This document shows positions 17,420 through 19,772 of a DNA stretch of 64,000 bases, one piece after another. Under the pieces are notes generated by a model, which was not told where the DNA came from, made no database searches, and was given only the letters and a program-made list of their open reading frames with translations. This DNA is from Eledone cirrhosa (Eukaryota), in assembly GCA_964016885.1 (NCBI GenBank), contig OZ024751.1:34224001-34288000 (forward strand), given 5' to 3'. Positions within the stretch are counted from its first letter, which is position 1, and each line of letters starts with the position of its first letter. The position numbers and the translations under genes are program-made.

Positions 17420-18840
17420 ATCTTAGATGCACGCTGGGATTATGTGGGGCTAGTAGACAGGGCAGGAGCGTGTAAAAAGCCTCAACAACCTGCTCAGACG
17501 TTTTGAACTGTCTGACAATATAGACTGGATTATCCGAATGTGCCAATGTGGACATGGGCAAACCACATCGGGTCATCCAGATCGTATTTAGATAGGGTAT
17601 TCTGTAGGGAAACAGATAAGGCTATTGTAGGTTGACCACAATTTAAAGTAGTCGACTACACGGACCACAAGTTTGTGATTTGTGAAGTTGACTTAGATAG
17701 ACTCCATAGGCAAGGGCCTGGTTACTGGAAGCTGAACGCGTCGTTCCCAGCGCGCAAAGCTTACAGAGACTGGATTAGCGAATTAGTTAAGCGTGCGTTG
17801 ATGGGTGCGATCGTCAACAACAGGTGGTGGTTTACCTTGAAAAGGGCTATTAGAGTAGAATCGATAATGTTTAGCAAAGGAGTAGTGATAGAGGAAAATA
17901 GAGTAGAGGGAGAGTTAGTTAGAAAGCTAGAAGAGGCGTTTAGGACAGGCATCGCAACCGACGTGCTTGCGGCCAGATTGGCACTCGAGCAATTCTTCAA
18001 CGCAAAGCATGAAGGCTGCGTTGTCAGAGCTAGAGCGCGTGGTCTAAGATACGAGGGGGCGAAAGCCGTTCAATGGACCCGGGTGGTGGAGGCGCGACGT
18101 GGAAACAAGTCCACAATTCGGTCTTTGCCTGATCAAAACGGGTGCATGTTGCTCGAACACGAGCAGATGTGTGCGTCTTTTCAACACCATTTTGCTCAAT
18201 TGTTCGGGAGCGGCGGCGGGCCGGATCGGAGTATGGACTTCGGTGCAACCTCCATCTCATGCGATACATCATAGAGAGGGTGGTTAAGGAACCTGGCACG
18301 GGTGGGGCCCTGATCAACTTGGATCAATCAAAAGCATTTGATATGGTCGACCATTGGTACCTGACTGCGGTCCTCGAGGCGACCGGCTTCGGGCCGTTTT
18401 TAGGGGCTGAATTGCTGCGATGCACAACATCTGCTCGATTGTAAGAGTGAATAGTCACCTGTCGCAGCCGTTCAGAATCATGCGCTCGGTCCGCCAGGGT
18501 TGCCCCCTCTTGTACGTACTGGCTCTCGAGCCGTTACTGCACAAATTGGAGACGATGATGTGGGGTCCCACGCGAACTGGGATTTTGGAGATCCGTGTCA
18601 CCTTACGCCGACGATGTCACAGTGGTGGTGTCGAGCACCAAACACGTCCAGCTGCTCGGCACCGCTCTCAAGGAATACGAAGTGGTGACAGGAGCAATTT
18701 TTTTTGTTGTTGTTTTCTATCCCGATTTCTACCTTGTTATAACCTGTTTACACGACCAAAACCCACTTTGTATCGTCCTGTTCTGTTCTGTGCCGTCTGT
18801 AATGTTTTTCTTCATGTTAGCCCTTGTGGCCAATGAAGAA
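17420..18840 (+). mobile_element. Decayed L1/Tx1-clade LINE ORF2 (APE endonuclease end plus partial reverse transcriptase) with probable 3'UTR
   Basis: Endonuclease motifs WTWAN..SSRSYLDRVF and YTDHKF; GPGYWKLN; RT motifs LINLDQSKAFDMVDH, SVRQGCPL, LYVLALEPLL and YADDVTV. Contains stops, frameshifts and internal deletions near 18240 and 18700; ends gcccttgtggccaatgaagaaa. Confidence 0.93.
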
Positions 18841-18843
18841 ACC

Positions 18844-19080
18844 AGTACCAGTAATGCACTGGGTAATTGCTGGCCTTGTGCCTAACGTAGAAACAATTAT
18901 TATTATTATTACGCCATGCTTTGACGTATAGAGTTACGGCCCTTGCCATTCTAAGTTCAAATCCCGCCGAGGTTAACTTTGCCTTTCATCCTTACGGGGT
19001 CGATAAAATATAGTACCAGTAATGCACTGGGTAATTGCTGGCCTTGTGCCAAAGTAGAAACAATTATTATTATTATTATT
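18844..19080 (+). mobile_element. Two tandem 5'-truncated SINE family A copies
   Basis: Tail-only copy at 18844-18910 and a longer copy at 18912-19080 with gttcaaatcccgccgagg...cctttcatccttacggggtcgataaaa. Confidence 0.9.
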
Positions 19081-19219: not shown

Positions 19220-19262
<43 letters not shown>

Positions 19263-19308
19263 TAGATAGATAAATATACACGGGTGTGTATGATTGTGTA
19301 TAGAAGAT

Positions 19309-19691
19309 TATATTAATAAAAGGAATTCCAACTTTGTCTGATTTACTCGTTTTATTTACAATCCTTTAAAATTTATAATGGTATTATAATGAAATAGTAT
19401 GATAGAATATTAAATGTTAAGTGTTAATTAAACAAGTACTTTCATGCTTTCGCAATCTTCAGGTTCATAATGCGTGGTGACAGTCAAGTTTGCAATTTTC
19501 AACAGTTGAAAATTGCAAACTTGACTGTCACCACGCATTATGAACCTGAAGATTGCGAAAGCATGAAAGTACTTGTTTAATTAACACTTAACATTTAATA
19601 TTCTATCATACTATTTCATTATAATACCATTATAAATTTTAAAGGATTGTAAATAAAATGAGTAAATCAGACAAAGTTGGAACTCCTTTTA

Positions 19692-19699
<8 letters not shown>
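19309..19699. mobile_element. Fold-back palindrome 1 (195-bp arms), putative Penelope-like 3'-end remnant
   Basis: Arms are reverse-complementary around 19504 with 2 mismatches; right end abuts (TA)n; each arm carries a hammerhead. Confidence 0.85.
19541..19579 (+). ncRNA. Minimal type-I hammerhead ribozyme (mirror copy on minus strand at 19429-19467)
   Basis: UGAAC-CUGAAGA-U-UGC-GAAA-GCA-U-GAA-AGUACU-U-GUUUA: stem I 5 bp, intact core, stem II with GAAA tetraloop, palindromic stem III; predicted cleavage after 19574. Confidence 0.8.

Positions 19700-19772
<73 letters not shown>

What the first reader, a model, noticed from the sequence alone, without database searches (positions are those of the whole stretch)
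19309..19699. Palindrome 1: 195-bp arms with essentially no loop and an intact hammerhead on each strand
Seen: symmetry centre at the single nucleotide 19504, with only two arm mismatches. The hammerhead at 19541-19579 has a GAAA-tetraloop stem II and AGUACU stem III. Inference: read-through transcription gives a ~195-bp dsRNA hairpin that would sequester the ribozyme, whereas initiation near the centre would free it. The DNA is also a likely cruciform or fragile site.
Basis: partly seen in the sequence, partly recalled or inferred. Interest (0 to 1): 0.7.

Follow-up and report, generated by a model that had tools for sequence, protein, structure and literature searches.

The report
Twin-primed Penelope retroelement end palindrome
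This 391-base mirror-image sequence is one of over 500 same-centred, back-to-back pairs of the ribozyme-bearing end of a Penelope-type jumping gene in this animal genome; the layout is a known footprint, and the copies suggest it is likely made by copying one RNA onto both cut strands of the target DNA, a step of this class's life cycle that is still unsettled.

Summary
The palindrome is real: centre 19504, 195-bp arms, two mismatches. Each arm is the pseudo-LTR (pLTR) of an abundant Penelope-like retroelement (RT plus C-terminal GIY-YIG, Neptune/Nematis-type linker). The genome holds 546 exact copies of the same centre and 5,871 exact hammerhead cores. Inverted pLTR plus one-sided tail is published PLE anatomy.

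The copies add mechanism. 95 of 98 head-to-head pairs carry exactly one tail. Paired arms share rare variants. Neither arm is consistently the longer (11 vs 13). The centre sits 31 nt below a TATA box that the palindrome itself lacks, so it likely marks the RNA's start. Best model: both nicked (TA)n strands prime on one sense RNA at two start sites, and the two cDNA ends are joined. A small excess of copies begins at the predicted ribozyme cut, hinting at some in vivo cleavage, although the motif has a non-canonical U·U at 10.1/11.1.

A regulatory sequestration switch and a fragile site are unsupported. The scan noted the same kind of element earlier on other DNA.

The parts
19224..19259 (.). 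Left (TA)n target microsatellite
   Evidence: Sequence; 27 of 28 full palindromes have (TA)>=4 within 45 nt of at least one end, 21 of 28 at both
19260..19308 (-). PLE 'tail': 3' extension of the left pLTR, absent from the right arm
   Evidence: Same tail follows the pLTR in L067 and runs on into the 5' UTR of the ORF; one tail in 95 of 98 pairs
19309..19503 (-). Left arm: pLTR copy, tailed
19429..19467 (-). Type I minimal hammerhead motif, predicted cut 19434/19433
   Evidence: activity not shown
19502..19506 (.). Head-to-head junction ACAGT; centre A at 19504; inferred RNA 5' end (A at 19502, arm position -3)
   Evidence: 546 exact centres; 5' ends pile up at -6..+4 in 47 of 82 and 53 of 97 arms; TATA 31 nt upstream in long copies
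19505..19699 (+). Right arm: pLTR copy, tailless, ending in TTATTAATATA
19541..19579 (+). Type I minimal hammerhead motif (U·U at 10.1/11.1, palindromic GUAC loop 3), predicted cut 19574/19575
19700..19769 (.). Right (TA)n target microsatellite
   Evidence: Sequence

Best explanation
The palindrome is a head-to-head pair of pseudo-LTRs of an endonuclease-bearing Penelope-like retroelement sitting in (TA)n, likely built at this site by two reverse-transcription events on one sense RNA. Shown: family identity, copy numbers, one tail per insertion, shared variants, 5' pile-up. Inferred: the GIY-YIG domain nicks both strands of a (TA)n tract; because (TA)n is its own complement, each 3' end can pair with a UA-rich patch of the RNA, one at arm position ~195 and one ~50 nt further 3' (giving the tailless and the tailed arm); both cDNAs run to the RNA 5' end (transcription start), the second displacing the first; their 3' ends (...ACTGT) anneal across a central T·T mismatch and are filled in, leaving a 1-nt centre. 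The product lacks the upstream promoter and is probably inert; the two hammerheads are passengers of the pLTR.
For: Identity: arm is flanked by a shared 3' UTR and an RT-GIY-YIG ORF; L067 is pLTR+tail-ORF-pLTR+tail with an inverted partial pLTR at its 5' end; Pfam GIY-YIG E=1.5e-6 above cut-off, RVT_1 E=0.0086 below cut-off; 453 homologues, best named ones from molluscs. One-tail rule: 27 of 28 exact-centre loci with two full arms; 95 of 98 head-to-head pairs, 16 of 16 spanning >420 bp. One template: arm-arm distance 0.014 in 41 near-perfect pairs and 0.020 in 10 pairs >150 nt apart, against 0.050 between loci; 21 rare shared variants in 41 pairs and 4 in 10, against 0.008 per random pair. No first/second arm: tail on the centre-A side 13, other side 14; tailed arm longer 11, tailless longer 13. 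Both arms can independently reach -3 with filler between (L023, L029, L093, L191). Sense RNA start: mode at -3, TATATAA at -33/-34, CCAAT boxes at about -86 and -123; the same 30-nt spacing in the family of window 36236-36521. In vitro a PLE protein cuts and extends both strands and starts at two internal sites that bound the tail (PMC11167929, main text read).
Against: No intermediate or RNA was observed. Gene conversion or spacer flipping between arms could create shared variants and randomise which arm looks first; the pairs with long spacers and short repeats argue against this but are few. 22 of 50 exact-centre loci have a short arm; where one arm is short the centre-A arm is the long one in 14 of 20 and 7 of 9 for stubs under 40 nt, a trend expected from fold-back. 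In the family of window 32514-32884 the junctions lie only ~23-25 nt below the visible TATA, not 30-31. Loci are not a random sample, and 4 of 24 asymmetric rows were poorly chained (10 vs 10 without them). No target-site duplication can be read inside (TA)n.
Confidence: 0.72

Rival explanations
1. Same element, but the second arm is a fold-back copy of the first cDNA: tail-first cDNA reaches the RNA 5' end, snaps back and copies itself until it meets the other target end at the UA-rich site.
For: Also predicts one tail and shared variants. Short inverted stubs favour the centre-A arm as the long one, 7 of 9.
Against: Requires the tailed arm to be the centre-A arm and never the shorter one; observed 13 vs 14 and 11 vs 13. 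At this locus the centre-A arm is the tailless one. Unrelated fillers lie between two complete arms in L023 and L029.
Confidence: 0.13
2. Self-priming on an antisense transcript makes the head-to-head junction (proposal of PMC3846280).
For: Published reading of palindromic inverted junctions in rotifer PLEs (passages); explains head-to-head polarity.
Against: Junctions and solo copies share a 5' end that matches a sense-strand TATA spacing in two of three families, and a minority end at the sense-strand ribozyme cut; an antisense 3' end has no reason to fall there.
Confidence: 0.07
3. The palindrome moves as its own unit (MITE-like or a hairpin retrozyme) or serves as a host-retained dsRNA/ribozyme switch.
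For: 546 identical centres; the RNA hairpin would be very stable.
Against: Junctions vary widely; centre base and tail side are unlinked, unlike copies of one master; palindromes occur on different subfamily haplotypes; no tandem monomers; no promoter in the unit.
Confidence: 0.05
4. Assembly or library fold-back artefact.
For: No read was shown to span this exact locus; (TA)n on both sides blocks short reads.
Against: Flanks are not mirrored, arms differ at two sites, one arm only has the tail; 546 loci share the centre; short-read contigs of runs X1 and X2 cross the centre, 19474-19534, at depth 20 and 23.5 against 5.7 and 2.9 for the single-copy flank (30 letters a side, one short of the tool's bridging rule, and possibly the source sample).
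Confidence: 0.03

Closest known systems
Insertion units of EN+ Penelope-like elements with inverted 5' pLTR and one-sided tail (PMC8557442 Fig. 2 legend and text; PMC3846280 Pen2a_Av; passages read)
   Same: Head-to-head inverted pLTR, tail at one end only, palindrome at the junction, microsatellite targets, TATA/Inr at the pLTR
   Different: Here the unit is reduced to two pLTRs with no ORF; tail is ~49 nt rather than 30-40; TATA lies upstream of the duplicated part; centre is fixed to the base in 546 loci
Minimal type I hammerheads of metazoan PLE pLTRs (PMC4209133; results and discussion read)
   Same: In the pLTR, short helix I, palindromic loop 3, thousands of dispersed copies; that paper already notes dual motifs 100-700 bp apart on opposite strands
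   Different: Helix II is short (3 bp, GAAA loop) and lacks the G10.1-C11.1 pair called highly conserved there
Poseidon of Anolis carolinensis in vitro (PMC11167929; main text read)
   Same: Two internal RT start sites bounding the tail, AT-rich targets, both strands cut and extended, uncleaved RNA the dominant template
   Different: Different clade (no CxxC linker); ORF starts inside its hammerhead, here ~270 nt below the RNA start; the text read does not derive inverted insertions
Animal non-LTR retrozymes (bioRxiv 10.64898/2026.07.22.740005; abstract, introduction and part of methods read)
   Same: Non-coding, type I hammerhead, PLE-related
   Different: Defined by tandem head-to-tail monomers; this unit is an inverted pair of the pLTR of an ORF-bearing family

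Membership tests
C-terminal EN+ Penelope-like element | Single ORF with RT and C-terminal GIY-YIG linked to this repeat | tested here: met
   ORF ends ~315 nt above the arm in many loci; GLKF, ADKG, GTAMG, RYLDD motifs and GIY-YIG. All copies seen are broken or partial; no intact ORF was found or sought exhaustively
C-terminal EN+ Penelope-like element | Direct pLTRs flanking the ORF, with inverted 5' copy | tested here: met
   L067
C-terminal EN+ Penelope-like element | [quoted passage not shown] | tested here: met
   95 of 98 pairs; this locus
C-terminal EN+ Penelope-like element | Target-site duplication | tested here: inconclusive
   Both ends lie in (TA)n; no credible non-simple duplication in 28 loci
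C-terminal EN+ Penelope-like element | Spliceosomal intron retained in the element | not tested
   Needs RNA
Neptune/Nematis clades | CX2-5CxxC linker between RT and EN, and CCHH motif in EN | tested here: met
   KCNDSRCGTC linker in L067 and most copies; LIYCIKCPNC...RVH...NH in EN; definition from PMC8557442
Neptune/Nematis clades | Placement in an RT tree with labelled references (Neptune versus Nematis) | not tested
   No labelled reference set was in hand
Type I hammerhead ribozyme | Core CUGANGA / GAAA / UH with helices I-III | tested here: met
   core near-invariant in 232 arms, though many were picked by that core
Type I hammerhead ribozyme | G10.1-C11.1 closing pair | tested here: not met
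   U·U in 229 and 232 of 232 arms
Type I hammerhead ribozyme | Self-cleavage | tested here: inconclusive
   Indirect only: 12 (TA)n-joined copies start at U17/G1.1 against 0, 1 and 1 at control G positions; 5 head-to-head junctions at the cut; 0 of 97 sampled arms start exactly there
Non-LTR retrozyme | Tandem head-to-tail monomers each with a hammerhead | tested here: not met
   Only inverted pairs, solo arms and ORF-flanking pLTRs in the loci examined

The most novel reading that the evidence does not exclude
The genome's copies are a fossil record of PLE integration: both target strands prime on the same sense RNA at two fixed sites, the mirror axis marks the RNA's 5' end, and a second, minor axis at the ribozyme cut (for example L303, a complete one-tailed palindrome centred on G1.1 with no spacer) shows that a hammerhead lacking G10.1-C11.1 cleaves in the germline.
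Probability: 0.45. Interest if true: 0.62.

Novelty: new member of a known kind. Interest (0 to 1): 0.38.

Why it matters
The locus itself is an ordinary, probably inert transposon stump. Its family bears on an open point: how PLEs make inverted ends and one-sided tails (left open in PMC8557442; antisense self-priming proposed in PMC3846280). The counts here favour twin priming on one sense RNA and name the sites to mutate in an in vitro system. They also give an indirect hint of in vivo hammerhead cleavage, which PMC11167929 did not see in RNA reads. Hundreds of near-perfect ~400-bp hairpins from this one family could feed dsRNA pathways where they fall in introns, but that is untested.

Tried and rejected
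Rfam at gathering over the window: no hit; at E<=10 over the locus only hairpin-shaped miRNA models, all below gathering, and no hammerhead model. Plain folding of the arm's 5' part does not give the hammerhead, z 0.3 to 1.2. No RNA holder listed, so expression, 5'-OH ends, small RNAs and editing were not examined. RAD-seq raw reads cover the family and the centre bins but cannot be assigned to this locus. The sigma-70 promoter scan was not applicable to an animal and was at chance level. TSD search found nothing usable. First tail classification by local alignment jumped into (TA)n and overcalled tails; it was replaced by a motif test. In one search, 13 of the 14 arms binned at -40..-7 are longer copies miscalled by my aligner; they are not counted as truncations. 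My first reading that no copies start at the ribozyme cut was softened. No control was run for head-to-head junctions at arbitrary positions. Look-ups of earlier findings near the locus and by sequence returned nothing. Paper searches listed no paper stating twin priming on one RNA for PLEs; subscription papers are not covered and no supplements were read, where tail or junction data may exist.

Full report
Observation. The window is AT-rich, microsatellite-laden animal DNA from a 3.0-Gb assembly. The palindrome is as described: centre A at 19504, arms 19309-19503 and 19505-19699, two mismatches. One mismatch is a C/T at a CpG that is polymorphic in the family (arm position 155). A type I hammerhead-like motif lies at 19541-19579 and is mirrored at 19429-19467. 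It has the core CUGAAGA/GAAA/UU, a 5-bp helix I, a 3-bp helix II with GAAA loop closed by U·U instead of G10.1-C11.1, and A15.1-U16.1 around a palindromic GUAC. Rfam does not recognise it.

What it is. The arm is a dispersed repeat: 481 candidates, 40 scored, mostly 95-98% identical; 5,871 exact 28-nt hammerhead cores; 546 exact 29-nt palindromic centres, control 0. Longer copies continue upstream into a shared 3' UTR and an ORF. L067 shows pLTR+tail, ORF, 3' UTR, pLTR+tail, with an inverted partial pLTR at the 5' end. [quoted passage not shown] By the definitions in PMC8557442 (passages) this is a C-terminal EN+ Penelope-like element of Neptune/Nematis type; I did not separate those two. That the host is a mollusc is inference. 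The palindrome is thus two pLTRs head to head, one with the tail.

How it forms. (a) One tail per insertion: of the first 50 listed exact-centre loci, 28 have two full arms; 27 have one tail, 1 two, 0 none. Over all head-to-head pairs in loci L001-L262, 95 of 98 have one tail, including 16 of 16 spanning more than 420 bp. Independent templates would give about half. (b) One template: paired arms differ by 0.014 (41 near-perfect pairs), 0.035 (15 pairs 4-150 nt apart) and 0.020 (10 pairs further apart), against 0.050 between loci, and share rare variants 21, 4 and 4 times against 0.008 per random pair. The window's arms share three non-majority alleles. (c) No first arm: the tail is on the centre-A side in 13 loci and on the other in 14; among 24 asymmetric pairs of 95, the tailed arm is longer in 11 and the tailless in 13 (10 and 10 after dropping four poorly chained rows). 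A fold-back of a tail-first cDNA forbids half of these, and at this locus the centre-A arm is the tailless one. (d) The axis is an RNA end: 47 of 82 core-anchored arms (82 of the first 100 listed) and 53 of 97 arms anchored further 3' (97 of the first 100 listed) begin at -6..+4, mode -3, solo copies included. In long copies TATATAA starts 33-34 nt above arm position 1, that is 30-31 nt above the modal end, with CCAAT boxes further up; reading these as a Pol II promoter rests on general knowledge. The family of window 36236-36521 repeats the 30-nt spacing; the family of 32514-32884 shows only ~23-25 nt (20 loci each). Both 3' ends of the element are UA-rich and abut (TA)n. These facts fit the in vitro behaviour of a lizard PLE, which cuts and extends both strands and starts at two sites bounding the tail (PMC11167929, parts 1-2 of 4 read). 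The steps from nicking to end-joining are inferred. Against a single mechanism, 22 of 50 loci have a short arm, and stubs lean the way fold-back predicts (14 of 20; 7 of 9 under 40 nt).

The ribozyme. Most templates were uncut, since copies extend 70 nt above the cut site. But 16 places join (TA)n to the cut-site motif, 12 of them at U17/G1.1 (4 exactly at G1.1), against 341 pattern matches at the RNA start (overlapping matches included in the latter). Controls at arm G47 and G141 gave 2 and 9 places, with 0 at G47, 1 at G140 and 1 at G141. Five head-to-head junctions lie at the cut against 546 at the start, and L303 is a full one-tailed palindrome centred exactly there. This is a modest, indirect hint of cleavage; junction controls at other positions were not run. 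PMC4209133 (parts 1-2 of 4) reports low, dimer-dependent activity for such motifs and already mentions pairs on opposite strands.

A read-through RNA would form a 193-bp hairpin, but no transcript is shown, and the promoter elements are absent from this copy. With 1% arm divergence the insertion is young, of order 1-2 million years if the octopus rate quoted in PMC13282606 (passages) applies. Nothing points to host function or to fragility.

Known and new. Inverted pLTR, junction palindrome and one-sided tail are in print (PMC8557442, PMC3846280; passages). It is not a retrozyme as defined in the 2026 preprint (part 1 of 5). My searches listed no paper with the twin-priming model or these counts. 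Earlier AI notes of this scan describe the same kind of element and similar models in this and at least 33 genomes; I had reached the PLE reading and the tail and variant counts before seeing them, and they are not evidence. Verdict: new member of a known kind; the locus is ordinary, the family statistics are a useful test bed. Interest 0.38.

Noticed in passing
window 32514-32884 (tail leftwards to about 32420): Second one-tailed hammerhead palindrome of another family: 183-bp arms, 5-nt centre, 0 mismatches; 37 of 40 scored candidates match the arm at 100% over its full length, so the family is very young, possibly active. Link to an ORF not shown.
   Followed up: partly
window 36236-36521 (tail rightwards to about 36580): Third one-tailed palindrome; its hammerhead has the U3-A8 core variant, G10.1-C11.1 and palindromic CCGG loop 3; 428 candidates.
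   Followed up: partly
L009:1440-1500 and L287, L289, L302 upstream of the arm: Two different families share CCAAT, then GCCACTTTT directly before the TATA box: a conserved promoter layout.
   Followed up: no
L303 (G000:C4:42559904-42559929): Complete one-tailed palindrome centred with no spacer on the predicted ribozyme cut.
   Followed up: partly
L023, L029: Two complete arms separated by 85-127 nt of simple-repeat filler, in L029 a (GGGTTC)/(GGATTT)-type run.
   Followed up: no
window 17636-18836: Broken ORF pieces resembling a Tx1/L1-type LINE (recalled resemblance; no Pfam hit); a 945-aa frame with the same start is in L072:2-2836.
   Followed up: partly
window 18840-19040: Directly repeated pieces of a very high-copy short repeat, probably a SINE (depth).
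   Followed up: no
L010 upstream of the arm: A further hammerhead-bearing end of another family lies head to head with this family's arm.
   Followed up: no
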